The position numbers and the translations under genes were made by a program. A stretch of DNA of 64,000 bases from IMG/VR virus record IMGVR_UViG_3300045256_000094; one strand, written 5' to 3'. Each line of letters starts with the position of its first letter. The first letter of the stretch is position 1. The notes under the pieces are model-generated. The model saw nothing but the letters and a program-made list of their open reading frames with translations. It had not been told where the DNA came from and searched no databases. This document shows positions 451 through 54,155 of the stretch, one piece after another. The stretch comes from a virus.

Positions 451-1341
451 TCACAATTGGTTGCAACACGCCAAGAAGGTGTTCTTCATCAACATGGCAA
501 CCGTGACCGGACCCACCCCTCCGGGCACAGGGGTGTAAGCCTGAACGATCCCGTAGATGCCGGGATGGCAGTCCCCGACGACCTTGCCGTCTACTCGGTT
601 AATGCCCACGTCAATGACAACACTGTCCTTATGTACCATCTCCCTCTTCAAGAAATTCGGCTGCCCCACGGCGACCACGATGAAATCGGAAGAAAGACAG
701 CACTGCTCCAACAGTTCAGGCGGCGTCTTGTCGTGGCACATGCTCACCGTGGCGTTCCCGAACAGGTCGTCCCGGACCATCATCGAGAACAGAGGCTTGC
801 CCACCACGTCGCTGCGGTTGATGAGCGTGACCTTCTTCCCCTCCAGCTTGTAGCCGTAGTGGTGGAGGATCGCCTGTACCGCCGCCGGGGTGCAGGGCTG
901 GTAGCGGGGTCTGCCTTGCGTTAGTAAACCCACGTTGGTCGGGCTGAACACGTCCACGTCCTTGAGCGGGTTCAGGGCGTCGAACACGTTACTCTTGTAG
1001 ATGCCAGTCGGCAGCGGGAGTTGAACAAGGAGGCCGTGGATGGCCTTGTCCTTGTTCAACCAGTCGATCATGCCGAGCAGGTGGGACTCCGGGTCGGAGA
1101 ACTTCTCCACGCCGTTCTCGAACGGCTGGTACAGGACGCTGTTGATCCCGACCTTCTCGCACGCCTCTCGCTTCTTGTTGACGTAGATGCGACTGGCCGG
1201 GTCGTTGGTGGTCAGGATAACGGCAAGGGCGGGACGGATTAGGAACCCTTGTTGGTTCTTCATCCTGATCCCGTCCTTGACTTCCTTCAGAATCGCCTCT
1301 GCTACAACATCACCCTTGAGCAACACGTTTCTGACTCCCAT
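451..1341 (-). CDS. folD: bifunctional methylenetetrahydrofolate dehydrogenase/cyclohydrolase FolD
   Basis: 296 aa; LLVQLPLP, VTLINRSDVVGKP and PGGVGPVTVAMLMKNT motifs are typical of FolD. Confidence 0.88.
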   Translation of the reverse strand: MGVRNVLLKGDVVAEAILKEVKDGIRMKNQQGFLIRPALAVILTTNDPASRIYVNKKREACEKVGINSVLYQPFENGVEKFSDPESHLLGMIDWLNKDKAIHGLLVQLPLPTGIYKSNVFDALNPLKDVDVFSPTNVGLLTQGRPRYQPCTPAAVQAILHHYGYKLEGKKVTLINRSDVVGKPLFSMMVRDDLFGNATVSMCHDKTPPELLEQCCLSSDFIVVAVGQPNFLKREMVHKDSVVIDVGINRVDGKVVGDCHPGIYGIVQAYTPVPGGVGPVTVAMLMKNTFLACCNQL

Positions 1342-19261: not shown

Positions 19262-20014
19262 ATGGTATGCACCTTCATCATCCCTTTCCCCTCCGCACGG
19301 ATAGATAATGTCCTGCAAACGGTCCGCTTCCTGGGGCGGAACCACCCGGAGGTTTGCAAAGAATCTGAGATCATCTTCTCATGCCAGGACCGCTGCGGCA
19401 ACATCCCCAACCCGTTCAAAAAAGACCGTCTCATCAACCTGGAAACGGACTGCATGAGGAAATCCAAGATGATGAACGAGGCGGCGAAGGTGGCGTCGTC
19501 CGACTTGCTCGTGTTCCTCGACAGCGACCGGGTGCTACCGGCCGGGTATTTCGACAAGGTGGTGCGGAACTACCAGCCCGGCACGGCCGTCTCCACGAAG
19601 AACATGTGGCGGCTCACAGAACCGGCCTCCGACGAGGACATCATCGCCGGAAAGTTCAAGTACGAGTTAGAAAACAAAGACACGACCAACAAAGCGTGGA
19701 CTCGGACCATGTTCGCCGGGAACTGTACCGTCAGTAAAGCCGACTTCTGGCGGGTCGGCGGGTGTGACGAGTCGTACCACGGGTACGGGTTCGAGGATCA
19801 CGACATGACCCGTACCCTGGAAACCGGAGGCGTCAAGTTCGTCTGGCACGAGGACATTGAACTCCATCTCTGGCACCCGAGGCTAACTTACGGCAAAGGC
19901 GACCAGAAGAAGATGTTCATCATGAACGGGTTGCGTTACTGCAAGAAGTGGAGTCTGCCCATTCCGCCGGAGCTACAGGTGGAGATGGGCACTTATACGA
20001 AGGGGATGATCTAA
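19262..20014 (+). CDS. family 2 glycosyltransferase (galactosyltransferase-like C-terminal motif)
   Basis: LVFLDSDRVL...GGCDESYHGYGFEDHDM. Confidence 0.68.
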   Translation: MVCTFIIPFPSARIDNVLQTVRFLGRNHPEVCKESEIIFSCQDRCGNIPNPFKKDRLINLETDCMRKSKMMNEAAKVASSDLLVFLDSDRVLPAGYFDKVVRNYQPGTAVSTKNMWRLTEPASDEDIIAGKFKYELENKDTTNKAWTRTMFAGNCTVSKADFWRVGGCDESYHGYGFEDHDMTRTLETGGVKFVWHEDIELHLWHPRLTYGKGDQKKMFIMNGLRYCKKWSLPIPPELQVEMGTYTKGMI

Positions 20015-20943
20015 TGGAATGCGTTGTCTACCACTGGTGGGCAGAGGACTACGATGCCCAGCCCGCAGAGAACCTGCGCACCCCGCTCATCCACTCCATC
20101 GCCAGCCTGCGTGCGGTTGACAAGACCATCCCGGTTTACGTCCTAGACGGCAGCAAGAAGCCGCTCAACTGGCACTACTGGTCGAGCAGCCTGCGGTTCA
20201 AGCTGATCCCGATCACCTTCAGTTACGAAGAGAAGTACGCCGACAAGCCCGGCTACAAGAACTTGTCCCGGATCGAGGACATCTGGAAGTGCGAGCTTCC
20301 CGAGGAGAAGATCATCTACTCGGACGCCGACGTGTTCTGGATCAAGAGTCCCAGGCCGACGACGTTCGACGGCCAGCGGTTCACCTTCAACAAATACAAC
20401 AGCGGTTTCTTTTACTACGACAAGACATCGCCGCTGGTCAAGGACTTCCACGAACTGTGGCACGCCTACATCATCACGGCGTTGAACGACGAGAACTTCC
20501 GAATCCTGAGCCGTCAGTACACAGACTACCGGGAGTGGTACTTCGTGCTGGACGAGACGGTGCTAACGTACATGGCGTACAAGCTGCCACGGTTCTTCGA
20601 CATCGTGGACACGAACGAACACTGCACCCTGGGCATGGCGGCTCAGCAGATGCCGTCGCCCGACAAGATCAAAATGTTCCACACGCACGGCGTCCTGGTC
20701 AAAGACGTGTTCACACACAGCGAACATGCCCGTGGACTGACGCCCCTGTTGATTAAGGAATGCTGGGACTCGCTCCAGGGACTCGGCGAAGAGAAGGTGA
20801 AGCAGTTGTACCGGCCGCAATACCTGGAGAAGTACCTTCCGTACCAGCGGTCCCTGTTCGACCCCGAGTTCGAGAAGGTACTTCGAGAGAGTAAAAACGA
20901 AAAGGGCTTGTGCCGGTTGACACAAGCCCTGCGGGTTACTTGA
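20014..20943 (+). CDS. hypothetical protein, nucleotide-sugar-transferase-like
   Basis: Starts MECVVYHWW with a TAATG overlap on the upstream stop; contains IYSDADVFWI. Confidence 0.4.
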   Translation: MECVVYHWWAEDYDAQPAENLRTPLIHSIASLRAVDKTIPVYVLDGSKKPLNWHYWSSSLRFKLIPITFSYEEKYADKPGYKNLSRIEDIWKCELPEEKIIYSDADVFWIKSPRPTTFDGQRFTFNKYNSGFFYYDKTSPLVKDFHELWHAYIITALNDENFRILSRQYTDYREWYFVLDETVLTYMAYKLPRFFDIVDTNEHCTLGMAAQQMPSPDKIKMFHTHGVLVKDVFTHSEHARGLTPLLIKECWDSLQGLGEEKVKQLYRPQYLEKYLPYQRSLFDPEFEKVLRESKNEKGLCRLTQALRVT

Positions 20944-21693
20944 GAAGGTCTAACTCGCCCTTCATGATCGCCTTGATGTTCGTCACCTTCTTGTTGGTCC
21001 GGTGATCGGTAACTCGACTCTCCATGAAGTTGTAGGTTCTGATCTTCTGCCCACGGCTGCCGTCGCCGAGCGTCTTGCGACGGAACTCGGAGTATTCCTT
21101 GTCGGCGGCTGCCTTCCGTTTGTCCTGAACACGGGCCGTCATGATCCTGATGGCGTCCCGCTTGTTGGAGTGCTGGTCCCGGCCGTTAATGAACACCGTG
21201 ATGCCAGTCTCCTTGTGCTTCACCCGCACGGCACTCTCGGTCTTGTTCTGGTGCTGACCACCAGGACCGTGCCCGCACTGAGTCGTCACTTCGTACTCGT
21301 CTTCCTTGATCGGCTCCCACACGTCCTCCTTGATCGGCAGGACGCCGACGGAGATCATGGAAGTTTGTTTACGGCCTTTGGATTCCGTCTCCGGGACACG
21401 CTGGCAGCAGTGACCGCCGCTCTCGCTCTTGAAGGCATCCCAGACCCCGTTGCCGGTGATCTTGGCGATGCAGTGCCCTTCGGACGTGTGAATCAGTTCA
21501 GACTTGAAGCCCTTCGTGTTGGCGTACTTGATGTACGCTGCGAAGAGTTCATCGACGAATATCTTGGAGTCCGCACCGCCCTCCCCGAACCGTAGTTCGA
21601 GGATGATTTCTTTGGCCTGCTCAAAGACTCCTCCACTTGTCCCCCATCTTCTTCATGGGGTCAAAGCGACCCCCTATTGTTGTGCTTACTCAT
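20936..21693 (-). CDS. class I release factor lacking domain 1 (RF1-like PxT = PET; PrfH-like architecture), with programmed +1 frameshift(s) in its leader
   Basis: The body aligns to RF1 domains 2-4: LELRFGEGGADS...IAKITGNGVWDAFKSESGGHCCQRVPETESKGRKQTS...GPGGQHQNKTESAVRV...RTYNFMESRVTDHR. The RF frame has no ATG/GTG/TTG upstream of M(21358) back to a TGA. The leader holds ATG(21691-21693)...AGGGGG-TCG-CTT-TGA-C followed by ATG AAG AAG ATG...GGAGGAGT-CTT-TGA-G. Confidence 0.7.
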
Positions 21694-33739: not shown

Positions 33740-34240
33740 TTACTTCTTTTTCTTCAGGTAGAAGCACTCCCCTGCGTAAACCCGCATGAAGTCGTCTATC
33801 TTCCAGGTCTGATCTTCGAGGGCTTTCGGCCCGCCGTTGTCGATCACCGTCATCGTCCCGGCCTTCCGGTCAACGCCGCTGACGACGAGGCAGTGGCGAG
33901 AACGTGGCCCGGTGATGATGCAGACAGCGACCGGCGAGCCTTCCTTAACGGCCGACTCGATTGACTCAAACACCGGCCCCTGTACAGCAACAAAGTCCAC
34001 CCCTCCCACACGGCACATCTCGTTGAGTGCGTCGTGGAGGAAGGCTGGACCCTTCTTCGTTTCAGTGACCTTGTAGAGTTGCGTGTAGCCGTGGTGGCGA
34101 GCAAGGGTTTCCATGCTCGACCACATGCACTGAACGCCGGTCTGGTTCTTGACCCTGTTCTCAGTTTTTACTTCAATGTTCTGCCCAAATGCCCAAACCG
34201 GAGCAACGGCCAGAAATAATACAGCGAGTAACTTACGCAT
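33740..34240 (-). CDS. secreted papain-like cysteine peptidase (C39-like) with signal peptide
   Basis: Signal peptide MRKLLAVLFLAVAPVWAFG, Cys block GVQCMWSSMETLARHHG and His block SRHCLVVSG. Confidence 0.5.
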   Translation of the reverse strand: MRKLLAVLFLAVAPVWAFGQNIEVKTENRVKNQTGVQCMWSSMETLARHHGYTQLYKVTETKKGPAFLHDALNEMCRVGGVDFVAVQGPVFESIESAVKEGSPVAVCIITGPRSRHCLVVSGVDRKAGTMTVIDNGGPKALEDQTWKIDDFMRVYAGECFYLKKKK

Positions 34241-34272: not shown

Positions 34273-35151
34273 CTACATCAATTTCTCGCCAGTCCTCCAC
34301 ACACCCTTCGCCGCTTTGTACTTCCTGTCCAAAGACTCCAACTTCGCCATATCCATGTTGGCCTGATTGCTCTTAAGCTTCCCGCCGTTGAAAAACAACT
34401 CGATCATCCGCTCACGGGGCAGGTGGTTGGCACTCTTGTCGTCCACTTTCGGTGCCCAACCGAGCCGGGCGAGGAACTGCAACATGGCGTCGGGATCGTA
34501 CCCGGCGTTCTTATAGTGAAGCATCGACGTGCTGCCCTCACTCTTGCTGAGCAGCTTGCCGCCCTGGGAGATCAATCCGACGTGGGCGAACTTCGGGATG
34601 GGTGCCCCGAGCAGGTGGAACAGCACGACCTGCTTGCTGGTGTTGGTGATGTGGTCGGTGCCCCGGAGGATGTAGTTGATCCCCATATCCATGTCGTCCA
34701 CCACGGACGACCAGTTGTAGGTCGGGGTGCCGTCGCTCTTAATCAACACCATCTCGTGCATGCGGTTGAGATCGTCGTCGGTGATCTTCACGTCACCCAC
34801 AACCTCGTCGTGCCATGTCCTCGGGACTTCCTTGAAGTCCAGGTGGCTGACGTAAAGGGTCAACGCACCGTCCCGGTCGGAAACGTTGGGCAGCAGGTCG
34901 ATGGCCTCCCGGTGACGCTTGAACCGCTCGCTCTGGCGGAACGTCCGGTCGTGGTTGAGGCCGAGCCAGTCCATGATGTCGTGGATGACCTTCACTGAGT
35001 CTTCGTTGTTACGCTTCTGGTCCGTGTCGTCAATGCGGAGGGTGAAGGTGCCGCCGCTCGCTTTAGCGGCGAGCCAGTTGAAGTACGCCGTCCGGGCCGT
35101 GCCGATGTGAAGATCGCCGGTCGGGGACGGGGCAATTCGGGTGTGAAACAT
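34273..35151 (-). CDS. glutamyl-Q tRNA(Asp) synthetase-like protein (GluRS catalytic domain without anticodon-binding domain)
   Basis: RIAPSPTGDLHIGTAR (HIGH), DGTPTYNWSSVVDDMDMGINYILRGTDHITNT and KLLSKSEG (KMSKS-like); 292 aa. Confidence 0.72.
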   Translation of the reverse strand: MFHTRIAPSPTGDLHIGTARTAYFNWLAAKASGGTFTLRIDDTDQKRNNEDSVKVIHDIMDWLGLNHDRTFRQSERFKRHREAIDLLPNVSDRDGALTLYVSHLDFKEVPRTWHDEVVGDVKITDDDLNRMHEMVLIKSDGTPTYNWSSVVDDMDMGINYILRGTDHITNTSKQVVLFHLLGAPIPKFAHVGLISQGGKLLSKSEGSTSMLHYKNAGYDPDAMLQFLARLGWAPKVDDKSANHLPRERMIELFFNGGKLKSNQANMDMAKLESLDRKYKAAKGVWRTGEKLM

Positions 35152-35227
35152 GGGTTCCTTTCATGAAAAAAGCCCGGCGTACTGAGTGTACGCCGGGCTA
35201 CAGGTAGGAGGGTTACTCTACCTTCGT

Positions 35228-35860
35228 CTACTCTTCGTCGCTCATGTCGTTCTCAAGCTCGACGTTCCAGTAGGCCGTGCCGAGGAATTGCTCCCACGAC
35301 TTGATCGGCTTTACCATGTCGGCCTTGAAGACGTTCATCTTCGGCTTCTGCGGCTTCGTCAGCAGCTTCATGCCTGCCTGCTTCGGGGTCCGGTTGGCCT
35401 TCTTGGCGTTGCAGCTTACGCACGCCAGGGCACAGTTCTCCCACGACGTTACCCCGCCCTGGGCACGAGGCAGAACGTGGTCGATGGTCAGTTCCTCACT
35501 GCCGAACCGCTTGTAGCAGTATTGGCAGGTGTAGTTGTCTCGCTTGTACAGCGTCCGACGGCTGAAGTGAATCTTCGGCCGGGGCAGCTTCTCGTACTTC
35601 GAGAGCAGGATTACTTCGGGAATCCGAACCTCAAGGTTCGCCGTGCGGATGACTTCATCGTCGGCGGACGCCTTCAGCTTCGACCAGTCGGCCCAGGTCA
35701 TCTGCTGATAGCTCTCCGGCTCGATGATCTTTGCCTTCGGCGTGCCGTCAGCGTACTCGCTGAACAGCATGACGATGGCCCGCTGGAGACTGACCGTCCC
35801 CACGGCTGTCCAGTTCTTGTTTAGAACTAGAACTCGGTTCTGTGTGAGTGTCGCACTCAT
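35228..35860 (-). CDS. HNH endonuclease
   Basis: CQYCYKRFGSEELTIDHVLPRAQGGVTSWENCALACVSCNAKK. Confidence 0.8.
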   Translation of the reverse strand: MSATLTQNRVLVLNKNWTAVGTVSLQRAIVMLFSEYADGTPKAKIIEPESYQQMTWADWSKLKASADDEVIRTANLEVRIPEVILLSKYEKLPRPKIHFSRRTLYKRDNYTCQYCYKRFGSEELTIDHVLPRAQGGVTSWENCALACVSCNAKKANRTPKQAGMKLLTKPQKPKMNVFKADMVKPIKSWEQFLGTAYWNVELENDMSDEE

Positions 35861-35948: not shown

Positions 35949-36149
35949 TCAAAATCCCTCATTCTGCCAATCCACCTTTTCTCGTTTGGCCGGTTTCACC
36001 GGGGTGTACCAGCCGCCGATCAGGTAGATGTCCGGGAAGTAGGGCCGGGGCCGGACCGTCGCCTTCATCCGCTCCCGGTACACTGAGTCAAGGTACGTTG
36101 CGGCGACGAAGTAGAACGCCATGCTGCCGAGGATAGCCATTTCCAGCAT
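35949..36149 (-). CDS. small hydrophobic protein ending ...REKVDWQNEGF
   Basis: 66 aa; member of the C-terminal WxxEGF group. Confidence 0.5.
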   Translation of the reverse strand: MLEMAILGSMAFYFVAATYLDSVYRERMKATVRPRPYFPDIYLIGGWYTPVKPAKREKVDWQNEGF

Positions 36150-37293: not shown

Positions 37294-37560
37294 TCAAAAT
37301 CCTTCCTGCGTCCATTCAGGATGTCCGCAGTCTAAACCATATTCCCATTCAAAATCAAGTGCAGCGTGCGCTCCGTCAAGCCACTTCGGACGGTCCGCTG
37401 GACTCGACGAACTGGAAGACGATGTTCTGGTCCGGGTTGAACTCGCCGCAGAGGATGTCTCTGCTTTGACCGCCGGTAAGGTCTTTCCGCAGAATGACCC
37501 GAAATACTTGTTCTGCATCGTCCACCGTAATCCCCTGATCCGAGAACAAATCCTTAACAT
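37294..37560 (-). CDS. questionable ORF ending ...PEWTQEGF (overlaps the 37376-37627 gene in another frame)
   Basis: The C-terminal 24 aa carry the WxxEGF motif. The N-terminal part is a low-complexity alternate frame. Confidence 0.3.
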   Translation of the reverse strand: MLRICSRIRGLRWTMQNKYFGSFCGKTLPAVKAETSSAASSTRTRTSSSSSSSPADRPKWLDGAHAALDFEWEYGLDCGHPEWTQEGF

Positions 37561-37627
37561 CCTGGTAGGTGAGGACGAGTTCTTTGGTCTGAAAGGTCAG
37601 TTGCGTCTCGCTGCCCGTGATAGTCAT
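37376..37627 (-). CDS. hypothetical protein
   Basis: MTITGSETQLTFQTKELVLTYQDVKDLF...; trimmed from the ORF-track extension. Confidence 0.4.
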   Translation of the reverse strand: MTITGSETQLTFQTKELVLTYQDVKDLFSDQGITVDDAEQVFRVILRKDLTGGQSRDILCGEFNPDQNIVFQFVESSGPSEVA

Positions 37628-37701
37628 ACCATATGTAAGTGTCAAAACAAAAAAATCCCCGGCCATCGGGCCGGGGACTTGGCGTTGAGCCTCTGGCGGT
37701 T

Positions 37702-38469
37702 CTAGCTGGACAGACGCTTGCGGACGAGGAACAGGCCGAACGCCGCCGGGATGCCCGAAGCCATCAGTGCGATGCTGCTCGGCTCGGGCGTGGTGATGGT
37801 CGGCGGGCCGTGCGGGTTCGGGTGATCGTTGCAATCCTTGTCATCATGACAGTGGCCCTTCGTGGGGCAGTGGATGGTGCAGATCGGCGGGCAAAAACGA
37901 TTGCACCAGTCGTGGTCTTCAGGGTAGGTGGTCGTCCAGTTGTTGATGATGGTCGGACCGTAGTTGATGAACGTGTCGCCGTTGATGATGGTCGGACCGT
38001 AGTTGATGATCGTCGAGGGCGGCGAGGCGAAGACGGTCGGCGGGCCGTACCGGAAGCCGCCCCCAAACCCCCAGCCTAAACCCCACCCGAGGCCACCGAA
38101 GAACGGGGACGGCGGCGTGTAGAAGAACCTGTTGATCGGCCCGCCCCCGGTCATCGGACCGAACCAGGAGTCGTGGCCGGTGGGCGGCAGACCCGAGTCG
38201 TAGTAGCCGTACAGCGGGACGCTGCCGCCGCTGTACTCTTCTTCACTAAGGACAACCTGCTTGTCGTCGGGGATGGGGATCGGACCGAGCGGGACGGTCG
38301 GGCAGAGGGGGATGGGCGGGCAGGGCAGGCACTCGAAGTAGAAGAACTGCGGCGGCGGGCAGTGGTAGAACCGGATGGGCGGCTCGCACCGGGGTCGGCC
38401 GAGCAGGAACCCGGCCTGGGTTTGGGCCACCATCAGCAGTGGCAGGACGGCGGACAGGAGCAGTCGCAT
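37702..38469 (-). CDS. secreted Cys/Pro/Gly-rich protein with PEP-CTERM sorting signal
   Basis: Signal peptide MRLLLSAVLPLLMVAQTQAG; internal repeats (I)INYGPTIIN; C-terminus TTPEPSSIALMASGIPAAFGLFLVRKRLSS. Confidence 0.62.
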   Translation of the reverse strand: MRLLLSAVLPLLMVAQTQAGFLLGRPRCEPPIRFYHCPPPQFFYFECLPCPPIPLCPTVPLGPIPIPDDKQVVLSEEEYSGGSVPLYGYYDSGLPPTGHDSWFGPMTGGGPINRFFYTPPSPFFGGLGWGLGWGFGGGFRYGPPTVFASPPSTIINYGPTIINGDTFINYGPTIINNWTTTYPEDHDWCNRFCPPICTIHCPTKGHCHDDKDCNDHPNPHGPPTITTPEPSSIALMASGIPAAFGLFLVRKRLSS

Positions 38470-38594
38470 GATGAACCTCCGACAACGAAGCGGGCGAAGA
38501 CCGAACCAGTATACCGTAAACTTTGGATGTGAAAAGGAGAGGGGCGGAATTTCTCCCGCCCCTCTCCCTGCTATAGCTCCCGTCGTTGGGAGTA

Positions 38595-39515
38595 TCACTT
38601 CAACCAGATGCCGTCGAAGTGTTTGTTGAGGAAATCCCTCATTTCTTTGGCGTCAGGTGAGTTCCTAAGTGCATCAAGATACTTCTCTTGCTTGTCATAC
38701 TTGAACTCCTTCAGGTCTTTGCCGGACATGAACACGTCGTAGCTCCGCTTCAGGTGCCAGTGAACAAATCTCTTGAACTGAACATTGGTCTTCCAGTATT
38801 CAGGGTCGTGCTTCTCGGCAGCCATCGCCACCGCAGTTCCGTAGACAGAGAACTCCAGCGGACCCGAAACAGCATCGGACCACTGCCCATTGTGTTTCCC
38901 GATCTTGGTGTCCTCGACGTTGACGCTGGCCCCGTTCACATAGGCAACCCACTCATCAAAGATGTACAGTGGGCGGTCGTCCCACGCCTGCTGTCCCGTG
39001 ACGTAGGTCGGATAGCGGAAGCCGTGGAGGGACTTCGGCACGAAGGGAATGATCGCACTCTTCTTAAACTTCGGCTCGTAGATCACGACGCCTTTGCCGT
39101 GCATGACGTAGAAGCCGTTGACCTTCGTGGAGTCCGGGTGGCCGTTGCGGATGTCGGCGTTGATGCCGTGGGTCGATTCGTGAGCGTTCGTGTCACGGTC
39201 GGCACGGGTGAACGGGCGGCGTGCCCGGTTCATGATGTCGGCGTACAGCGAATCTTCTCGATAGGCTTGCGTCACCGTCTTGACTTCAATGAACTCCGGC
39301 TCAGGAATCTTAGGGGCTGCCGGTGGCGTCCCCTCCTCTGGCCGGGCGTTGATCGGGCTGCTGAACTCTTCAAACGGCTCGACCGGCATTGTTGGCGGGG
39401 CGTTCTCCGTGAGCGACGGTGTACGACTCCCATACAGTTTGTAAATGGCGAGGTTGATGTTGACTGCAAAAGAGAGCAAGACAACCATCAACAGATTGCT
39501 CTTGATAGACATCAA
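38595..39515 (-). CDS. membrane-anchored/secreted hypothetical protein
   Basis: N-terminal hydrophobic segment MMSIKSNLLMVVLLSFAVNINLAIY; 306 aa. Confidence 0.5.
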   Translation of the reverse strand: MMSIKSNLLMVVLLSFAVNINLAIYKLYGSRTPSLTENAPPTMPVEPFEEFSSPINARPEEGTPPAAPKIPEPEFIEVKTVTQAYREDSLYADIMNRARRPFTRADRDTNAHESTHGINADIRNGHPDSTKVNGFYVMHGKGVVIYEPKFKKSAIIPFVPKSLHGFRYPTYVTGQQAWDDRPLYIFDEWVAYVNGASVNVEDTKIGKHNGQWSDAVSGPLEFSVYGTAVAMAAEKHDPEYWKTNVQFKRFVHWHLKRSYDVFMSGKDLKEFKYDKQEKYLDALRNSPDAKEMRDFLNKHFDGIWLK

Positions 39516-39701: not shown

Positions 39702-40295
39702 TCAAAATCCCTCTTCTTTCCAGTTCACCTTCTCTCTCGGCTCACTGACTTTCTTGAATGTGTTTACTTCGTCGTCCACGGCGATGCGGACGAATTGAGG
39801 CGGCATGACGACCGGGGCAGAGTTAACGAACCCGAACCGAGACAGGCGGCTGCGGCGGTTCTCGTACCGATCCATCTCCCGCTGGTACTCTCGCTCGTTA
39901 CTGGTGCGAACCGGCCTCTCGTTCATGACTTCCCGGAAGAAGGTATTAGAGTTATGCGCCCATTCGCCCATCATCTCTCGGCGGAACCGCTCGGACTGCT
40001 CCCGGAAATTCCGCTGGGATTCAGTCTCGTTGCTCCGAAGGTTCTGTAAGACGGCCTTGATCGAGGCCAACAGGCTCGCACCGCTTTCATCCTGCCGAGT
40101 CAGCGTGCGGTCCTGGTAGGCAACAATCCGGTCGGAGACGGCTTCCCTCAATCGGAAGTCCCGTCTCCCGCCGTACTCGTTAGATAGGATTGATAAGGCT
40201 TGGTTCTGGTCGCCGGACGTGCCGACTTCCCGCCACTCGCCGTTGAACATCACTTCCATGCGATACCTGTACCAAATGTCGTCGTTGTAGCTCAT
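39702..40295 (-). CDS. hypothetical protein (Arg/Glu-rich) ending ...REKVNWKEEGF
   Basis: 197 aa; member of the WxxEGF group. Confidence 0.5.
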   Translation of the reverse strand: MSYNDDIWYRYRMEVMFNGEWREVGTSGDQNQALSILSNEYGGRRDFRLREAVSDRIVAYQDRTLTRQDESGASLLASIKAVLQNLRSNETESQRNFREQSERFRREMMGEWAHNSNTFFREVMNERPVRTSNEREYQREMDRYENRRSRLSRFGFVNSAPVVMPPQFVRIAVDDEVNTFKKVSEPREKVNWKEEGF

Positions 40296-41086
40296 GCCAA
40301 GTAGGTATGCACCTGCTCCAATACCGACTCGACCCTGGCGATGTCGAACTTGTCGGCCTCGTCCCGGACCTTCGTCTCCATGTCAATCCAGAACGGCGTC
40401 TCGCCTACAACGTCGCCGATCTTCTTCAGAATCTCGACCACGTTGTCAGGCCCGATCCCGCCTGCGTACCCGCACTGCACGCCCTCTGCCGGAGGGTGCC
40501 ACGTCTTCGGCTGCTTACCCTTCCCGCCGCTCACGTCGTAGAGCATGTGGAACTGAAACAACTCCTCCGGCCCGGCCGGACCCGGCTTGTCGTCGTCGAA
40601 GCGGTAGTGCTTCAGGTACTCGTCCCGCAAGTTCTTGTTGATGAGGGCCAACCACTCATGCCGCTGGAAGGCACGCTTGGTCTGGAGGATGATCGAGGGG
40701 CAGAAGTCCAACTCGATGCCCTGACCGGCCCGGTAGGTGTCGAGCAACTTCTGGAAGTCCAACGCCATGAACGTGTCGTCAGTCATGTTGACCTGGAGAC
40801 GCCCGTAGCTGTCGAACTCCTCTTCACCGAAGGTGAACTTCCCCTTAACGAACTCGGTCGTCCACTGGCCGCAGATGTGCGCAGCCAGCGGCAGGTCGTC
40901 CCGCTCGTCCCAATAGGCTTGCAGGTTGCTCGTCCACTCAGGGCCGGGGTAGCGTCCGCTGCCCTGCTTGTTCTTGGAAAAGAGGATGGCCCACTCGACA
41001 AGCGGGTACTTGTCGGTGAGGGCACCGAGTTGTTCCGGGGTAACGGCCTCGTCAGCCCCGGTAATCGTAACACGCTTGAGCTTCAT
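40292..41086 (-). CDS. TIM-barrel protein, phosphoribosylanthranilate-isomerase-like
   Basis: VTITGADE...AHICG...MLYDVSGGKGKQPKTW...GYAGGIGPDNVVEILKKI resembles the TrpF fold motifs. Confidence 0.4.
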   Translation of the reverse strand: MKLKRVTITGADEAVTPEQLGALTDKYPLVEWAILFSKNKQGSGRYPGPEWTSNLQAYWDERDDLPLAAHICGQWTTEFVKGKFTFGEEEFDSYGRLQVNMTDDTFMALDFQKLLDTYRAGQGIELDFCPSIILQTKRAFQRHEWLALINKNLRDEYLKHYRFDDDKPGPAGPEELFQFHMLYDVSGGKGKQPKTWHPPAEGVQCGYAGGIGPDNVVEILKKIGDVVGETPFWIDMETKVRDEADKFDIARVESVLEQVHTYLA

Positions 41087-41113
41087 GTCGCATCCTCCAG
41101 ATGCCACAATCTA

Positions 41114-41389
41114 TCACAACAGGTTGGCGGTGTCCACAGTAACACGACGGCCGTGAACGATAGACGGCGACGGCAGGTCAATCGTTGCACGGTTGCCCTG
41201 GGAGCCGTACTCCTTGACCTTCAAGAACCCCTCGGCGGGGAGTTTCTTGTTACTGCTCTTGAAGACGACGTTATCAAACGGGGTTTTGATTTCGAAAGGA
41301 GTTCCGTCAACCAGGGTGGACTTCACCAAATAATGCTTCTCGGTTTCGGACTCGTGGATGGTGCAGCTTAGTCTGCGATCTTTAGTCAT
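41114..41389 (-). CDS. hypothetical protein
   Basis: 91-aa ORF. Confidence 0.4.
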   Translation of the reverse strand: MTKDRRLSCTIHESETEKHYLVKSTLVDGTPFEIKTPFDNVVFKSSNKKLPAEGFLKVKEYGSQGNRATIDLPSPSIVHGRRVTVDTANLL

Positions 41390-41556: not shown

Positions 41557-41997
41557 CTACGTCCCCTCTGGTCTGCCCGCCTTCCCCTTGCTCCGGTTCT
41601 GGAGGTTCAAGTAGAAAGCAAAGGTCTGGCGGTTCGGAACCGACTTGTTGCCGTCGATGCCCCTGAACACCAGCTTTAGTTTAGTGTTGTCGTTCTCATA
41701 TGGCAAGATGTCTTTCAACCGGGAAAGCACGCTCGCAATGAACGGCCATGTGCCGGTGATCCGAATCCCGTCCTCACCATACGACGACTTGCTCGGCCCG
41801 CCTTCGTTGCCATCCTTCATCGGCTGGATGTAAACGGGCAGGTCCGGGCGTAGTTTCTTCCAGATGTCGAGAATTTCCGCCTTCTTGGCAGACCAACTCT
41901 GGTGCGAGACGCCTTGAACGCCCGCACCAGAGTCGAATGCCTGTTGAGCGAACTCGACGAACTCCTGTTGCTCGAAGAACTCCTTGAAACTACCCAT
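41557..41997 (-). CDS. hypothetical protein with N-terminal MGSFKEFFEQQEF
   Basis: 146 aa; member of the N-terminal FKEF group. Confidence 0.5.
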   Translation of the reverse strand: MGSFKEFFEQQEFVEFAQQAFDSGAGVQGVSHQSWSAKKAEILDIWKKLRPDLPVYIQPMKDGNEGGPSKSSYGEDGIRITGTWPFIASVLSRLKDILPYENDNTKLKLVFRGIDGNKSVPNRQTFAFYLNLQNRSKGKAGRPEGT

Positions 41998-42005
41998 GCC
42001 AGTAT

Positions 42006-42452
42006 TTAGCTGGCACGGATTTGTTTCACGGCTGCCCCGACGGTATTTCCGTCAACGGCGAGGTTCTTCCCCTTCAGGAGCTTCATCGCCACGCCCGTCG
42101 CCTGCCCGTCGGACTTCGCCGCCTTGATGTCGCCCTGGACGGAAGCGAGTTCCGCCAGGACTTGATCGAGGGACAGCATCACCGGCAGGTAGCCCGTCAG
42201 GATCACGTTCTCCTGCGTCAGCTTGGCGTGCCGGGGGTCGGTCGTCGGCAGGTGCCCCAGCGACTCCGTGTTGCCCTCGATGGCCTTACGGATGACGCCG
42301 AACACCATCTCGTCGGTCGCCGTCTTGCTCTGGCGGATCGCCAGTGACTCGGTTTCGGCGACCACGACCTTCAGCGTGTCCCGGCGCACCGTGTCGCCGA
42401 ACTTCATTGCGGCCGTGATCTCAGCCCGCATCTGCTCGATCAACTTGCTCAT
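42006..42452 (-). CDS. GatB/YqeY-domain protein
   Basis: MSKLIEQMRAEITAAMKFGDTVRRDTLKVVVAE. Shares an ATGA overlap with the upstream CCA-enzyme stop. Confidence 0.62.
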   Translation of the reverse strand: MSKLIEQMRAEITAAMKFGDTVRRDTLKVVVAETESLAIRQSKTATDEMVFGVIRKAIEGNTESLGHLPTTDPRHAKLTQENVILTGYLPVMLSLDQVLAELASVQGDIKAAKSDGQATGVAMKLLKGKNLAVDGNTVGAAVKQIRAS

Positions 42453-43696
42453 GTCATCAGCCTCCGATCTTCGAGGTAGTGGTTCACCTGGAGTTCCCTG
42501 ATCTTCTTCCCCATCTCCGGCCCAGGGGCAATCCCGTACTTCTCCTGCACTTCCGCCCCGGTGATCTCCGGGAGTTCGTACACGCACAGGTGTTCGAGCC
42601 GTTCCGGGCAGAACGGGACGATCTTCGAGAACTCCGTCAAGCTCTCCCGGAACCCCGGCCTGTTACGCAAGGCCAGGGACGCCTTCACCATGTCGTCCAT
42701 CTTCGGCTCGGACGCACGGCAGGCGTTGTTCGTTTCCACCAAGAAGGCCACCAGATCGAACACATCGGCGGGCCACTTGGCTTCGAGGAGCTTGGCCTTC
42801 ACCAAATTCCCCTTCGGCACGTCGCTCAGAATCACCCCTAACACGACGCTCGGGTTCTTACAGTTCCCGACCTGTGCAGCGTGTGCCCGGCTGTGGTTCA
42901 GTTCGGGCAGCACTTCGTCCATCAGGCCCAGCCCGTACAGGTTGAGCAAGTACGAACGAGTCCTGACCGACTGCTTCAGCCCGGCAAGGAACTCCTGCTG
43001 GATACGCTCCTTGCTGATCGGCTGGAGGGTGCGCTGCCCCAGGTGGTGCGGGCAGGGCTGGTTCAGACGCCGGTAGTAGTCCAGAGCCGAGTAGGTCTGG
43101 TCAGTCAACTGGCCGTCGCCCTCTTGCAGCACCGTGTCGTTGAACCGGGAGAAGAACCGAACCAACCGCAAGATGCGGAGCCGGTCTTCACCGAGTCGCC
43201 TCCACGGATCGCCGATGGTGCGGACGTGCTTGAACATCACGTCGTTGATCCCGCACGAGTAGTCGAGGACTTCCCCGCTCCCGATGTCGTAGAACAACCC
43301 GTTGATGGTCAGGTCACGCCGGTAGTGATCGGCCTCTAGGTCACGGGTGTAAGTCACCTTGTCCGGGTGACGCCCGTCCCCGTCGGCCCCGTCGCTCCGC
43401 ATGGTGGCGATCTCGAAGTCCTCGCCGTCCAGGTGCGCCACCATGACCCCGAACGCCTCGCCCTTCTCGAAGCAGCGGATGTTGGCTTTCTTCAGTACAT
43501 CCGCTACCTCGAACGGCACGGCGTCAGTCACCACGTCCACGTCCTTCGACTTGAAAGGAAGGCCGTGAAAGCGAGCCAGGAGGAAGTCCCGGACGTAGCC
43601 GCCGACAGCGTAGAACCCGAACCCGGCGTCCTTGAAGACCTTGTGGAGCTTCTGGACGGGCTTGGGGACCGGGATGTCGAACTTGTGTCGTTGCAT
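42449..43696 (-). CDS. tRNA nucleotidyltransferase (CCA-adding enzyme)/poly(A) polymerase family with HD domain
   Basis: FYAVGGYVRDFLL...DVDVVT...GRHPD...RRDLTINGLFYD. Confidence 0.85.
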   Translation of the reverse strand: MQRHKFDIPVPKPVQKLHKVFKDAGFGFYAVGGYVRDFLLARFHGLPFKSKDVDVVTDAVPFEVADVLKKANIRCFEKGEAFGVMVAHLDGEDFEIATMRSDGADGDGRHPDKVTYTRDLEADHYRRDLTINGLFYDIGSGEVLDYSCGINDVMFKHVRTIGDPWRRLGEDRLRILRLVRFFSRFNDTVLQEGDGQLTDQTYSALDYYRRLNQPCPHHLGQRTLQPISKERIQQEFLAGLKQSVRTRSYLLNLYGLGLMDEVLPELNHSRAHAAQVGNCKNPSVVLGVILSDVPKGNLVKAKLLEAKWPADVFDLVAFLVETNNACRASEPKMDDMVKASLALRNRPGFRESLTEFSKIVPFCPERLEHLCVYELPEITGAEVQEKYGIAPGPEMGKKIRELQVNHYLEDRRLMT

Positions 43697-45011: not shown

Positions 45012-45285
45012 CCCAGCCTACACGGCCTCCACCTTACGGCTTCAGCCTCGGCCAGATGTGAGTTCCACGGTACGGTCCCAGGTATTGCTACCTGGGGTGC
45101 CGTCGTTCGGCACGCTTGTCGCACACCCTTGCGGGGTACAGTACCCTAGCTATTACGCTTTGGGATCAAGCTCGCTATCACCCTTACGGTGTTCGCAACC
45201 TTAGACTCGTCAAGATGTAATCCCTCTACCTGTACCTGATTCATCACCAAGTACAAGCATCCTTGCGGACAGCATTCTTCCCGAG

Positions 45286-45356
45286 TAGCCCCTACAGGAG
45301 TCGAACCTGTTCGACCTCTTTAGGAAAGAGGCACGCTTCCGTCACATCCAGGGGCC
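45286..45356 (-). tRNA. tRNA-Arg (anticodon CCU)
   Basis: Hand-folded 71-nt cloverleaf: acceptor GGCCCCU/AGGGGCU, anticodon arm CCUCU-UUCCUAA-AGAGG, T-arm ACAGG-UUCGACU-CCUGU. The D-stem has two G·U pairs. Confidence 0.55.
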
Positions 45357-50279: not shown

Positions 50280-50801
50280 TTACTTGTAGATCGGCACCAG
50301 TTGCCCGTTGATGAGGGCGTACCCCTGGAAGGTGAGGGTCTGGCCCTGCTGTTGCTGTTGCGGCATCGGCTGGCCCTGCTGGATCGCCGGTGCCGCCCCG
50401 GTCGCCGGGATCGCCGACGACTGGCCGGGCGTCGTGCTGGACGACGGCGGCAGGGTGATGGTGGGCTGAGCGGCCGGGAACTGGATCGGCTGCTGCCAGT
50501 TCGGCTGCCAGCCAGCGATGGCGGGCTGCTGGAAGGACTGCGGGAACTGCTGGAAGGCGAACCCCGCCTGCTGGCACTCGGCACAGTTGCTCGCCGGGCT
50601 GGTGCTGATGAACCCGGTGGAGGCGTAGCCGCCACTGCACCCGCTGTTACACCCGGCGGAAGCGTAGCTCCCGCTGCACCCGGAGGAGGCGACGGCGTGC
50701 CCGCCACCGCACCCGCCCTTGCGACGACCCCCGAAGGCCGAAGCGTCCGCCGCCAGAACACCCGCCAGCCCCAGGGCCAGCATCAGTCGGAACTGCATCA
50801 C
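50280..50801 (-). CDS. secreted Gly/Cys/Ser- and Gln/Pro-rich protein
   Basis: Signal peptide MMQFRLMLALGLAGVLAADASA followed by low-complexity repeats. Confidence 0.5.
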   Translation of the reverse strand: MMQFRLMLALGLAGVLAADASAFGGRRKGGCGGGHAVASSGCSGSYASAGCNSGCSGGYASTGFISTSPASNCAECQQAGFAFQQFPQSFQQPAIAGWQPNWQQPIQFPAAQPTITLPPSSSTTPGQSSAIPATGAAPAIQQGQPMPQQQQQGQTLTFQGYALINGQLVPIYK

Positions 50802-52747: not shown

Positions 52748-53119
52748 TCATAGGAGCTTCAAGCTCCCCGTGATCTTGTCGATCTTCCCCGCCGGAGCCG
52801 GACCGATGGCGAGGCAGGTCTTGGTGGGCACTCCGTTGAACTCAGTACGCCCGCTGTCCGTAATCATGTGGACGGTGAGCATGGCGTCCTTCGCCTTCTG
52901 GAAGATGTCGAGCAGTTCTTCCTCGGAGTCGCAGCGGACGCAAATCTTGGCGTAGCCCGATTCGGTCCACTCGACTTCTTCCTTCGTGAGCTTCTGCCCG
53001 TTGAGGAGTTTCTGCATCAAAAACGCACCGGAGGCGTGCGAACCCTGGGCGACCATCTTGCCCTTGCGCATGTTCAGGTCGTTACGCATCACGATGACTT
53101 GCTTCACGTCGTCCATCAC
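52748..53119 (-). CDS. peptidyl-tRNA hydrolase, PTH2 family
   Basis: KMVAQGSHASGAF...KICVRCDSEEELL...DSGRTEF...TCLAIGPAPAGKIDKITGSLKLL. Confidence 0.8.
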   Translation of the reverse strand: MMDDVKQVIVMRNDLNMRKGKMVAQGSHASGAFLMQKLLNGQKLTKEEVEWTESGYAKICVRCDSEEELLDIFQKAKDAMLTVHMITDSGRTEFNGVPTKTCLAIGPAPAGKIDKITGSLKLL

Positions 53120-53412: not shown

Positions 53413-53617
53413 ACTTCACCGCCATGAACGGGTTAACGATCTGCATGCCCTCGGCCTGCTTCTCTGCCTTCTCTTCGCCCGCCCGCTCGATCTCCCTCCG
53501 GGAGTGGAACGGACAGCAGTGCAACGACCAGTCGAGGCAGACGCCGTAGAACACGCCTTCCCCTGATACTACCTTGACGGCTTTGCAATTACAACCGGGA
53601 ATTTCGCAGCTTGGCAT
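53387..53617 (-). CDS. Cys-rich small protein
   Basis: 76-aa ORF. Confidence 0.4.
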   Translation of the reverse strand: MPSCEIPGCNCKAVKVVSGEGVFYGVCLDWSLHCCPFHSRREIERAGEEKAEKQAEGMQIVNPFMAVKCELGKAAC

Positions 53618-53985
53618 TAGAAACCCTCCTGTCTCCAGTTAACGCCCGTTTCCCCACGAATCAGGCGACAAGAGTATGTACGTTGATGCTGTGCGTCTTC
53701 GAGGAAAGGATAGAGCTTCCGGCAGTGAATCCACAACATGACGGGAGTGCCGAACAGGTAGAGGACAGGAATTGCAATACCGGCCAGGATCGTCTCGAAG
53801 ATATCCCCGGCGTCGGCCTTCCTCATGCAGAAATCAAAGGTGCGAACGAAGACGTGTTTCCTGATCGCCAGGACGCACTTGTCGATGAAGTTGGGTTTCA
53901 TGGTTGTCCCCCACGCCGGGCGGGTCGGGCAACCCCTGTCCGACCCCATAAGGACAATGCCTGCAACCATTGCGGCAGCAGGCAT
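53617..53985 (-). CDS. hypothetical protein ending ...ETGVNWRQEGF
   Basis: Member of the WxxEGF group; the likely start is the internal MKPNFIDK. Confidence 0.45.
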   Translation of the reverse strand: MPAAAMVAGIVLMGSDRGCPTRPAWGTTMKPNFIDKCVLAIRKHVFVRTFDFCMRKADAGDIFETILAGIAIPVLYLFGTPVMLWIHCRKLYPFLEDAQHQRTYSCRLIRGETGVNWRQEGF

Positions 53986-54064
53986 TGCGGTTTCTCAAGA
54001 ACAACGTGGTTAGGACGAACCGGCCGTTCTCTTGGTAATAATCTCGTCCCTCTTGTAACATGAG

Positions 54065-54155
54065 TCGGGGTGTCGGGATTCGAACCCGATCCGGTGGGTT
54101 AATCGGACCCTATACCGATTATAAGTCGGCCCGTTCTGCCAGTAACTCCACCCCG
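54065..54155 (-). tRNA. class II-like tRNA (91 nt, long variable region); anticodon loop CUUAUAA, so the anticodon is possibly UAU and the identity is uncertain
   Basis: Acceptor CGGGGUG/CACCCCG (7/7 pairs), 3-bp D-stem GUU/AAC, T-arm UCGGG-UUCGAAU-CCCGA. Confidence 0.5.

What the first reader, a model, noticed from the sequence alone, without database searches (positions are those of the whole stretch)
37702..38469. PEP-CTERM (exosortase-sorted) secreted protein encoded in a phage-like region
The protein has a signal peptide. Its body is Cys/Pro/Gly-rich with (I)INYGPTIIN repeats. Its C-terminus is textbook PEP-CTERM (…TTPEPSSIALMASGIPAAFGLFLVRKRLSS). PEP-CTERM proteins need a host exosortase and are normally chromosomal. 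This places the host among exosortase-bearing Gram-negative lineages. It also suggests the element exports a cargo via the host EPS-associated sorting pathway.
Basis: partly seen in the sequence, partly recalled or inferred. Interest (0 to 1): 0.6.

Follow-up and report, generated by a model that had tools for sequence, protein, structure and literature searches.

The report
PEP-CTERM surface protein on phage-like element
A large, probably viral bacterial element carries a self-contained gene for a secreted protein whose tail matches the bacterial "PEP-CTERM" surface-sorting signal, so the element may use its host's sorting enzyme to change the cell surface; this has not been shown.

Summary
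Window 37702-38469 (minus strand) encodes a 255-aa protein. It has a Sec-type signal peptide, a Cys/Pro/Gly-rich body with two INYGPTIIN repeats, and a C-terminal PEP / TM helix / RKR tail. The tail passes NCBIfam TIGR02595 (19.2 bits, cutoff 16). It just misses the Pfam cutoff (18.8 vs 20.7).

Mutation controls show the score needs the PEP motif, the order of the helix residues and the basic cluster.

The gene is an insulated cassette: terminator, sigma-70-like promoter, SD, ORF, terminator. It is conserved at one position in a small lineage of large elements. These elements use SD sites and carry tRNAs. Only 7 relatives exist among 1.84 billion representative proteins, none in the 185,579 species-representative genomes scanned.

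It is the fastest-evolving gene of its syntenic block (33-39% identity; neighbours 51-94%). In more distant relatives, one of them a 239-kb IMG/VR viral contig, the same slot holds a membrane protein and a secreted trypsin-like protease.

No capsid, portal or terminase gene lies in the window, no exosortase was found, and the host is unknown. Three of seven relatives read PAP rather than PEP. Exosortase processing is therefore a reasonable inference, not a result.

The parts
37702..38469 (-). CDS of the 255-aa PEP-CTERM pre-protein (stop codon included)
   Evidence: Identical protein P0001 was called by JGI on a 169-kb contig. Relatives are P0002-P0007.
38413..38469 (-). Codons 1-19, a Sec-type signal peptide (MRLLLSAVLPLLMVAQTQA, cleavage predicted after TQA)
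   Evidence: Sequence inspection, hydropathy scan, AF2 helix 2-23. The motif (A)E(T/S)QA(G/A)(W/F) is conserved in relatives.
38158..38187 (-). Codons 95-104, PPTGHDSWFG, the most conserved motif of the family (P95 P96 T97 G98 H99 F103 G104 invariant)
   Evidence: Alignment A2. No known domain was found.
37942..38013 (-). Two 33-nt copies (37942-37974 and 37981-38013), start-to-start spacing 39 nt, encoding INYGPTIIN twice (aa 155-163 and 168-176)
   Evidence: 97% identical copies.
37714..37791 (-). Codons 227-252, the PEP-CTERM sorting domain (PEP motif, TM helix, RKR cluster)
   Evidence: TIGR02595 19.2 bits vs cutoff 16; mutation controls; AF2 helix 232-254.
38476..38480 (-). Shine-Dalgarno GGAGG, 7 nt upstream of the ATG
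   Evidence: Window-wide SD peak at -14..-8.
38508..38535 (-). Sigma-70-like promoter TTTTCA-16 nt-TATACT. Both hexamers are invariant in five diverged relatives.
   Evidence: The pattern is unique in the window (1 match, 0.02 expected).
38534..38569 (-). 16-bp GC-rich hairpin followed by CUUUUCA, the terminator of the upstream HExxH gene, which insulates the cassette
   Evidence: z -4.9. Covariation in five relatives: 9 of 20 pairs of the two conserved hairpins carry compensatory changes.
37643..37680 (-). Intrinsic terminator of the PEP-CTERM gene: 12-bp stem plus a U-run
   Evidence: z -4.0. Hairpin and T-run are conserved in five relatives.
38595..39515 (-). Conserved upstream neighbour: a signal-anchored protein with invariant HExxH plus E188 (putative membrane-tethered Zn peptidase of unknown fold)
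   Evidence: AF2 pLDDT 93.5. No fold match. Adjacent to the PEP-CTERM gene in every locus that has one.

Best explanation
The gene is an accessory, moron-like cassette of a lineage of large, probably viral (jumbo-phage-like) bacterial elements.

Proposed path of the product:
1. It is transcribed from its own sigma-70-like promoter between two intrinsic terminators.
2. It is exported by Sec, and signal peptidase I cuts after TQA19.
3. [quoted passage not shown]
4. The host's exosortase (EpsH/Xrt) recognises PEP, removes the anchor and hands the Cys/Pro/Gly-rich, Thr/Asn-repeat body on to the cell surface or exopolysaccharide layer.
5. There it most likely alters the envelope of the infected or carrier cell, for example by masking receptors (superinfection exclusion) or changing matrix and aggregation properties. 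It may act together with the roughly 28 kb of glycan-synthesis genes on the same element.

Shown: the ORF, the signals, the HMM membership, the cassette anatomy, positional conservation, rapid divergence, and bacterial-type gene expression.

Inferred: export, exosortase cleavage, surface destination, biological role, and the viral nature of the element.
For: - TIGR02595 is passed, with specific dependence on PEP, helix residue order and the basic cluster.
- 4 of 7 family members pass the cutoff. All 7 keep P-(E/A)-P, a helix and an R/K tail at the extreme C-terminus, and every member with an intact N-terminus has a signal peptide (P0002 is N-terminally truncated).
- There is no TM segment between the two signals.
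- The protein has no homology outside its own family, which is typical of PEP-CTERM cargo (PMC1569441).
- Promoter hexamers and both terminators are conserved, with covariation in the upstream hairpins.
- Synteny is fixed in L003, L004 and L010, and the HExxH-PEP gene pair is also present in L005-L006 and L008.
- It is the least conserved of 17 shared genes: 33-39% identity against 51-94% for neighbours. That fits an exposed interface protein.
- The same slot in distant relatives holds other envelope-directed proteins, a polytopic membrane protein and a signal-peptide-bearing Trypsin_2 peptidase.
- The element uses SD sites and stop-start overlaps, so the host is a prokaryote.
- Phage-like content: tRNAs, PHROG hits, and a 239-kb IMG/VR relative sharing 10 genes.
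- A large glycan-gene cluster lies at 4.7-32 kb.
- PEP-CTERM exoproteins with both signals removed are experimentally documented (ZepA, PMC10957091).
Against: - No exosortase gene lies in the window, and the host is unknown.
- Three of seven relatives have PAP instead of the 'near-invariant' PEP and fail the HMM.
- Cys is 4-8%, against about 0.4% in typical PEP-CTERM proteins.
- The Pfam gathering score is narrowly missed.
- The protein is 16% Pro, so a PxP next to the helix is less improbable than in an average protein.
- No virion or packaging gene was found in the window or within 10 kb of the relatives' homologous region.
- The structure model is uninformative (pLDDT 44.6).
- There are no expression or proteomic data.
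Confidence: 0.55

Rival explanations
1. Exosortase-independent, C-tail-anchored envelope protein. After signal-peptide cleavage the protein stays in the inner membrane as a type I bitopic protein with a Cys/Pro/His-rich periplasmic domain. There it acts, for example, in superinfection immunity, lysis timing or metal binding. On this reading the PEP-like motif is a by-product of the Pro-rich juxtamembrane segment.
For: PAP variants in P0003, P0004 and P0007 fail TIGR02595. Restoring E in P0004 still gives only 13.8 bits. The protein is 16% Pro, with atypically high Cys and a His/Cys/Asp-rich stretch just before the helix. No exosortase is seen. The neighbours are also membrane proteins: BaxI and the signal-anchored HExxH protein.
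Against: The window protein and three relatives pass a curated cutoff. The score collapses when the helix residues are merely re-ordered, so the tail is more than a generic anchor. P-x-P sits at the same register before the helix in all 7 members. The overall architecture is the textbook one.
Confidence: 0.25
2. The element is not a virus. The window belongs to a megaplasmid, another large mobile element or a genomic island, and the gene is an ordinary PEP-CTERM cargo travelling with polysaccharide-synthesis genes, as on the Desulfovibrio vulgaris plasmid.
For: No capsid, portal, terminase or tail gene was detected in 64 kb or near relatives. A ParB-like gene and a roughly 28-kb glycan cluster are present. 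There is a plasmid precedent. The lineage has no match to the CDS or its neighbour in 50,697 GenBank phage records.
Against: - No conjugation or replication-initiator genes were seen.
- Two tRNAs, including Ile(TAT).
- Translation-related auxiliary genes typical of huge phages: GluRS-like, CCA-adding enzyme, PTH2, an RF-1 domain protein, and YqeY in relatives.
- A LAGLIDADG gene present in some relatives and absent in the window.
- The syntenic core spans GC 31-57% across many environments.
- A 239-kb relative and 117 HExxH-family loci are catalogued as viral in IMG/VR.
- The family was not found in 185,579 species-representative genomes.
Confidence: 0.15
3. Unimolecular spanin-like lysis protein: an N-terminal outer-membrane signal plus a C-terminal inner-membrane helix bridging the periplasm, as in phage T1 gp11.
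For: The topology (N-terminal signal plus C-terminal TM) is the same. The gene lies among membrane and periplasmic proteins (HExxH protein, BaxI) that could in principle be lysis factors.
Against: No family member has a canonical lipobox. Cleavage-site motifs are TQA|G(W/F), of SPase I type. No endolysin or holin was identified next to it. The gene has its own promoter and terminators rather than sitting inside a lysis operon.
Confidence: 0.04

Closest known systems
PEP-CTERM / exosortase (EpsH, XrtA) sorting substrates (TIGR02595; Haft et al. 2006, PMC1569441)
   Same: N-terminal signal peptide, no internal TM, C-terminal PEP motif plus TM helix plus basic cluster. Passes the curated HMM cutoff. 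Body has no homology to known proteins. Thr-rich with Asn/Thr repeats. Sits on DNA that also carries polysaccharide-synthesis genes.
   Different: Encoded as a single copy on a phage-like element with no exosortase in view, whereas cellular genomes usually carry many copies plus EpsH. Cys is 4-8% instead of about 0.4%. Three of seven relatives read PAP.
ZepA of Anabaena (PEP-CTERM zinc-handling exoprotein, PMC10957091) and PepA of Zoogloea (floc-forming PEP-CTERM protein, NF033554)
   Same: Both are functionally studied PEP-CTERM proteins. For ZepA, export with both signals removed is documented. A His/Asp-rich unstructured stretch, as in ZepA's N-terminus, has a counterpart here (HCHDDKDCNDHPNPH).
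   Different: No sequence similarity outside the sorting tail: floc_PepA scores 12.9-17.8 bits, confined to the tail, against a cutoff of 80. ZepA folds confidently, while this protein does not (pLDDT 44.6). Metal binding here is speculation.
Phage morons / lysogenic-conversion surface genes (own knowledge, e.g. lambda bor and lom)
   Same: Autonomous promoter-ORF-terminator cassette inserted between conserved backbone genes. Envelope-directed product. Slot content varies among related elements. Fast evolution.
   Different: Those examples do not depend on a dedicated host sortase-like enzyme. Here the element's life style (lytic or temperate) and even its viral nature are unproven.
PEP-CTERM-domain protein HOG10 of Dehalococcoides IME1 elements (bioRxiv 10.64898/2026.09.15.751708)
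   Same: The only mention found, among 30 papers holding both 'PEP-CTERM' and 'phage', of a PEP-CTERM domain in a virus-like mobile element. It too sits among signal-peptide and TM proteins.
   Different: A small integrative element of a monoderm-like host. No sequence relation was tested, and the paper only notes the domain in passing.
Unimolecular spanin (phage T1 gp11; own knowledge)
   Same: N-terminal export signal plus C-terminal TM anchor on a periplasm-spanning phage protein.
   Different: No lipobox, no adjacent lysis genes, and a specific PEP-CTERM HMM match.

Membership tests
PEP-CTERM sorting-domain proteins (TIGR02595) | Score at or above the curated HMM cutoff | tested here: met
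   19.2 bits vs cutoff 16. The isolated tail scores 23.4 bits. Relatives: 17.2, 18.8 and 23.6 pass; 14.4 and two with no hit fail. Pfam PF07589 scores 18.8 vs GA 20.7, which is not met.
PEP-CTERM sorting-domain proteins (TIGR02595) | Near-invariant Pro-Glu-Pro motif at the start of the domain, located at the extreme C-terminus | tested here: met
   P228-E229-P230, 26 residues from the end. PEP->GSG abolishes the hit. Within the family, 4 members have PEP and 3 have PAP.
PEP-CTERM sorting-domain proteins (TIGR02595) | Hydrophobic TM helix followed by a basic cluster | tested here: met
   Hydropathy peak at aa 230-251. AF2 helix 232-254. RKR at 250-252; RKR->SGS drops the score to 15.9.
PEP-CTERM sorting-domain proteins (TIGR02595) | N-terminal signal peptide and no TM segment in between | tested here: met
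   MRLLLSAVLPLLMVAQTQA|G by inspection. Only two hydrophobic segments are present. No dedicated signal-peptide predictor was available.
PEP-CTERM sorting-domain proteins (TIGR02595) | Composition of the mature part: very low Cys, raised Thr/Ser/Asn (Haft 2006) | tested here: not met
   Cys is 4.3% here and 4-8% in most relatives, against 0.4% typical. Thr at 7% is raised. This is a tendency of the class, not a membership criterion of the HMM.
PEP-CTERM sorting-domain proteins (TIGR02595) | Co-occurrence with an exosortase (EpsH/Xrt) in a diderm, EPS-producing organism | not testable with these tools
   The window has no protein with more than 5 predicted TM segments. The host is unknown. The rest of the 169-kb source contig could not be fetched.
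PEP-CTERM sorting-domain proteins (TIGR02595) | Cleavage at or near PEP and release from the inner membrane | not testable with these tools
   Needs biochemistry.
Phage moron (autonomous accessory cassette) | Own promoter and terminator, inserted between backbone genes, with presence varying among relatives | tested here: met
   Promoter and two terminators are conserved. The slot downstream of the HExxH gene holds different envelope genes in L017, L019, L022, L031, L035, L046 and L095.
Tailed-phage genome | Capsid, portal, terminase or tail genes | tested here: inconclusive
   None was found in the window's ORFs scanned against PHROGs and Pfam, nor near relatives. A syntenic 239-kb relative is an IMG/VR viral contig. 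105 kb of the source contig remains unseen.
Unimolecular spanin | N-terminal lipoprotein signal (lipobox with Cys at +1) | tested here: not met
   Cleavage region is TQA|G(F/W) in the six members with an N-terminus. There is no L-x-(G/A)-C at the site.

The most novel reading that the evidence does not exclude
A lineage of jumbo phages encodes its own exosortase substrate. This orphan PEP-CTERM cargo hijacks the host's exosortase and EPS export route to plant a rapidly diversifying, possibly glycosylated or metal-binding protein on the surface of the infected cell. If so, it would be the first virus-encoded client of the exosortase system, and a natural probe for what exosortases do with their substrates.
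Probability: 0.35. Interest if true: 0.6.

Novelty: new member of a known kind. Interest (0 to 1): 0.4.

Why it matters
Exosortase sorting is widespread in environmental diderm bacteria but poorly understood. The acceptor molecule and the final destination of the cargo are still largely hypothetical.

A mobile, probably viral, single-copy cargo gene that must rely on a host enzyme would show that viruses exploit this pathway to remodel the cell surface. It would constrain host range: the host must carry a compatible exosortase. It would also provide a compact reporter for the pathway.

As it stands, this is a well-formed PEP-CTERM gene in an unusual, uncultivated genetic context, with no functional evidence.

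Tried and rejected
1. Homology of the mature domain. Pfam and NCBIfam found only the sorting tail. PDB sequence search gave only Gly-linker artefacts. AF2 with the 7-sequence alignment gave pLDDT 44.6, so no fold search was attempted.

2. Relatives elsewhere. None in IMG/VR, in GenBank phages or in 185,579 species-representative genomes.

3. Viral hallmarks.
- PHROGs and Pfam on the window's larger ORFs and on ten large ORFs of relatives gave none.
- PDB sequence searches with the 490-aa and 504-aa unknown proteins gave none.
- Walking 5.6 kb along the 239-kb IMG/VR relative turned up, judged by eye only, more sugar-modification-like genes.

4. Fetching the rest of the source contig failed. 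The 169-kb contig is not returned by look-ups, and an exact match to the window end found nothing.

5. Host identification failed. Genome scans with the PEP-CTERM family and with the HExxH neighbour found nothing. NCBI cluster members carry no organism names.

7. Eukaryotic-virus reading (a type I glycoprotein of a giant virus). Rejected because of the position-specific SD peak and the 4-nt stop-start overlaps.

8. Spanin reading. Rejected for lack of a lipobox.

9. A recurrent phage promoter motif. Rejected because TTTTCA-N16-TATACT is unique in the window.

Full report
**The observation**

Window 37702-38469 holds a minus-strand ORF of 255 codons. A longer GTG-initiated version (to 38598) runs through a strong hairpin. 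The ATG at 38469 is preceded at 7 nt by GGAGG and is the start called independently by JGI on the identical protein P0001.

- N-terminus: MRLLLSAVLPLLMVAQTQA|G has the n-h-c layout of a Sec/SPase I signal.
- Composition: Pro 16%, Gly 11%, and 11 Cys in two clusters at aa 28-56 and 189-213.
- Repeats: INYGPTIIN occurs twice, encoded by two 33-nt copies that are 97% identical.
- C-terminus: TTPEPSSIALMASGIPAAFGLFLVRKRLSS.

**Is the PEP-CTERM call more than chance?**

NCBIfam TIGR02595 scores 19.2 bits against a curated cutoff of 16 (E 0.0016) over residues 227-252. Pfam PF07589 scores 18.8 against a gathering score of 20.7. The authors of the domain state that the Pfam model recognises only 22% of TIGR02595 hits (PMC1569441).

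The model is short and the protein is Pro-rich, so I ran controls on the isolated tail:

| Tail variant | TIGR02595 score |
|---|---|
| Wild type | 23.4 bits |
| E229A | 18.5 bits |
| PEP->GSG | no hit |
| RKR->SGS | 15.9 bits |
| Helix residues shuffled, PEP and RKR kept | no hit |

The match therefore depends on the motif, on the order of residues in the helix and on the basic cluster. It is not a generic anchor.

**The family**

A word-indexed search of 5.8 billion protein clusters found only the protein itself and one partial relative. An exhaustive HMMER search of 1.84 billion representatives found seven proteins in all.

All share the same plan:
- a signal peptide ending (A)E(T/S)QA(G/A)(W/F), seen in the six members with an intact N-terminus;
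- a Cys/Pro-rich stretch;
- an invariant PPTGH(D/E)xxFG motif;
- a Gly/aromatic-rich stretch;
- Ile/Asn/Thr repeats;
- a second Cys/Pro/His-rich stretch;
- P-(E/A)-P, a helix and an R/K tail.

One member (L008) is frameshifted but keeps a perfect tail in the other frame.

Four of the seven pass TIGR02595. The three PAP variants do not. Restoring Glu in silico rescues two of those three.

No member was found in IMG/VR, in GenBank phages or in 185,579 species-representative genomes.

AlphaFold with the seven-sequence alignment gives only the two terminal helices (pLDDT 44.6). The body is probably disordered or too poorly sampled to model.

**Anatomy of the locus**

The gene is insulated on both sides.

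Upstream: a 16-bp GC-rich hairpin followed by CUUUUCA terminates the preceding gene. The TTTTCA doubles as a -35 box, with TATACT 16 nt downstream, then the SD and the ATG.

Downstream: a 12-bp stem plus a U-run sits 22 nt after the stop codon.

In five relatives whose flanking sequence has diverged:
- both promoter hexamers are invariant, and the upstream hairpins are maintained through compensatory changes (9 of 20 pairs);
- the downstream hairpin and T-run are also kept.

The promoter pattern is unique in the window. This is the classical moron layout.

**Context and evolution**

In L003/L004 (JGI) and L010 (Logan) the gene sits in the same place. The order is:

CCA-adding enzyme - YqeY - four unknown proteins (two in the 146/92-aa range, two larger) - a 60-aa ORF (called in L003/L004 only) - signal-anchored HExxH protein - PEP-CTERM gene - 83-aa ORF - 80/90-aa ORF - BaxI - small TM protein - HNH - (LAGLIDADG) - GluRS-like - and, in L003/L004, C39-like peptidase.

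Short contigs L005-L008 show the same HExxH-PEP pair.

Among 17 genes shared with L003/L004, neighbours are 51-94% identical, while the PEP-CTERM protein is 33-39% identical by BLASTP. It is the fastest-evolving gene of the block.

A broader set of 80 metagenomic loci carrying the HExxH gene shows a conserved core, using my numbering of the window's ORFs:
- g53 (41557..41997), g52 (41114..41389) and g51 (40292..41107): three unknown proteins;
- g49 (38595..39515): the HExxH protein;
- g44 (35228..35860): the HNH protein;
- g29 (20936..21358): the RF-1 domain protein;
- g28 (19948..20943): an unknown protein.

This core spans GC 31-57% and marine, lake and other samples. In these distant relatives the slot after the HExxH gene does not hold a PEP-CTERM gene. 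It holds a ~205-230-aa polytopic membrane protein, usually followed by a signal-peptide-bearing Trypsin_2 peptidase. No other PEP-CTERM-like ORF occurs in those 634 kb.

The slot is therefore a variable site for envelope-directed accessory proteins, and the PEP-CTERM cassette is the version carried by one sub-lineage.

**Is the element a phage?**

Evidence for:
- Two tRNAs, Arg-CCT and Ile-TAT, confirmed by Rfam at 40.5 and 36.6 bits.
- PHROG or Pfam hits to tRNA nucleotidyltransferase, a GluRS catalytic domain, an RF-1 domain protein, MazG, ParB, ATP-dependent ligase, PNK, FolD and a conserved HNH protein.
- PTH2-like and NADAR-like proteins, which matched PHROGs of unknown function and were named by eye. 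NADAR is annotated on the L010 ortholog.
- Most ORFs have no match.
- A LAGLIDADG gene is present in L003/L010 but absent in the window.
- A strong position-specific SD peak at -14..-8 and 4-nt stop-start overlaps show bacterial-type expression and exclude a eukaryotic virus.
- 117 homologues of the HExxH gene lie on IMG/VR viral contigs. One of them, a 239-kb contig (L095), shares ten genes in order with the window.

Evidence against:
- No capsid, portal, terminase or tail gene was found in the window or near relatives.
- The other 105 kb of the source contig could not be retrieved.

I rate 'jumbo-phage-like virus' at about 0.8.

**Mechanism**

The best-supported model is the standard PEP-CTERM route (PMC1569441; the experimental example is ZepA, PMC10957091), applied to a cargo supplied by the element:
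1. Sec export and SPase I cleavage.
2. Transient anchoring by the C-terminal helix.
3. Recognition of PEP by a host exosortase.
4. Release to the outer layers.

The rapid divergence, the own promoter and the variable slot point to a role at the cell surface of the infected or carrier cell. So does the adjacent ~28-kb set of GT2 glycosyltransferases, methyltransferases, DegT aminotransferase, carbamoyltransferase, epimerase/dehydratases and UDP-galactopyranose mutase. Receptor masking or matrix remodelling are the obvious candidates.

None of these steps is shown. The window has no exosortase-like polytopic protein, the host is unknown, PAP variants exist, and the Cys content is far above that of typical PEP-CTERM cargo.

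The main rival is an exosortase-independent C-tail-anchored periplasmic protein (0.25). A non-viral carrier (0.15) and a spanin-like role (0.04) are less likely.

**Comparison with what is known, and novelty**

By the HMM and all sequence-level criteria the protein is a member of the PEP-CTERM class. The body is a new family, which is normal for this class.

A full-text search found 30 papers mentioning both PEP-CTERM and phage. Of the two whose PEP-CTERM passages I read, and judging the rest by title and abstract, only one notes a PEP-CTERM domain on a virus-like element, in passing (Dehalococcoides IME1). None describes a virus-encoded exosortase substrate. Plasmid-borne PEP-CTERM genes are known.

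I therefore file it as a new member of a known kind in an unusual carrier, of moderate interest. The more novel reading, viral hijacking of the exosortase pathway, is open at about 0.35.

Noticed in passing
window 35949-36149(-), 37294-37386(-), 39702-40295(-), 53617-53985(-); also L010, L014, L016, L017, L022, L031, L046 and others: Many unrelated small proteins of this element and its relatives end in the same C-terminal tag, (E/K)KV(N/D)W-x-x-EGF-stop. There are 4 in the window (0 in shuffles) and 33 in 15 of 80 related loci. Synonymous variation shows the constraint is on the peptide. The codons also supply an SD-like GAGG for the next gene. No literature hit. This may be a lineage-specific C-terminal recognition or docking signal.
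   Followed up: partly
window 37294-37627(-); L003 5088-5430; L010 11809-12142: The 83-aa ORF just downstream of the PEP-CTERM gene ends in GCU-UGA. It is followed, in the +1 frame and with no nearby start codon, by a conserved 27-30-aa coding stretch ending in the W-x-x-EGF tag. Synonymous-type substitutions switch frame exactly at the invariant junction CCGAAGUGGCUUGA. This is either a programmed +1 frameshift at a stop codon or an overlapping gene started at an internal ATG (37560). Distant relatives have the tagged protein as a separate 80-aa gene.
   Followed up: partly
[not shown]
   Followed up: yes
window about 4770-32153: A roughly 28-kb block rich in glycan-synthesis and modification genes: GT2 glycosyltransferases, at least three SAM methyltransferase paralogues (one Pfam-confirmed, the others named by eye), DUF707, DegT aminotransferase, carbamoyltransferase, two epimerase/dehydratases and UDP-galactopyranose mutase. 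Relatives carry different sugar genes at the same place, for example MIOX in L003 and, by eye, 2OG-oxygenase-like and sulfotransferase-like ORFs in L172.
   Followed up: partly
window 34273-35151(-), 42449-43696(-), 52748-53119(-), 20936-21358(-), 451-1341(-): A translation and one-carbon auxiliary set typical of huge phages: a GluRS catalytic-domain-only protein, a CCA-adding enzyme, PTH2 (named by eye), an RF-1 domain (ArfB-like) protein and FolD. The closest phage homologue of the CCA-adding enzyme is only about 31% identical (Caulobacter phage CcrColossus); the GluRS-like protein is 37% identical to a gene on a 635-kb uncultured phage.
   Followed up: partly
window 54064-54155(-): The tRNA-Ile(TAT) is 92 nt long by ARAGORN, although Rfam aligns it end to end to the 71-position model (36.6 bits). 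It may carry an insertion or intron. In gathering mode, Rfam's fast filters missed the tRNA-Arg at 45285-45356, which scored 40.5 bits with laxer filters.
   Followed up: no
L003 7533-8420 and L010 14256-15134 vs window 35151-35228: A LAGLIDADG_2 homing-endonuclease gene sits between the HNH gene and the GluRS-like gene in two relatives but is absent in the window. The 'HNH' gene itself is a highly conserved core gene: 90-94% identical in close relatives and 57-66% in most distant relatives that keep the syntenic core. It is not a sporadic homing element.
   Followed up: no
window 50280-50801(-) and 33740-34240(-): Two further signal-peptide-bearing proteins: a 173-aa Cys/Gly/Ser/Gln-rich low-complexity protein with no family match, and a 166-aa Peptidase_C39_2-like protein. 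A C39 peptidase also lies next to the HExxH gene in L009.
   Followed up: no
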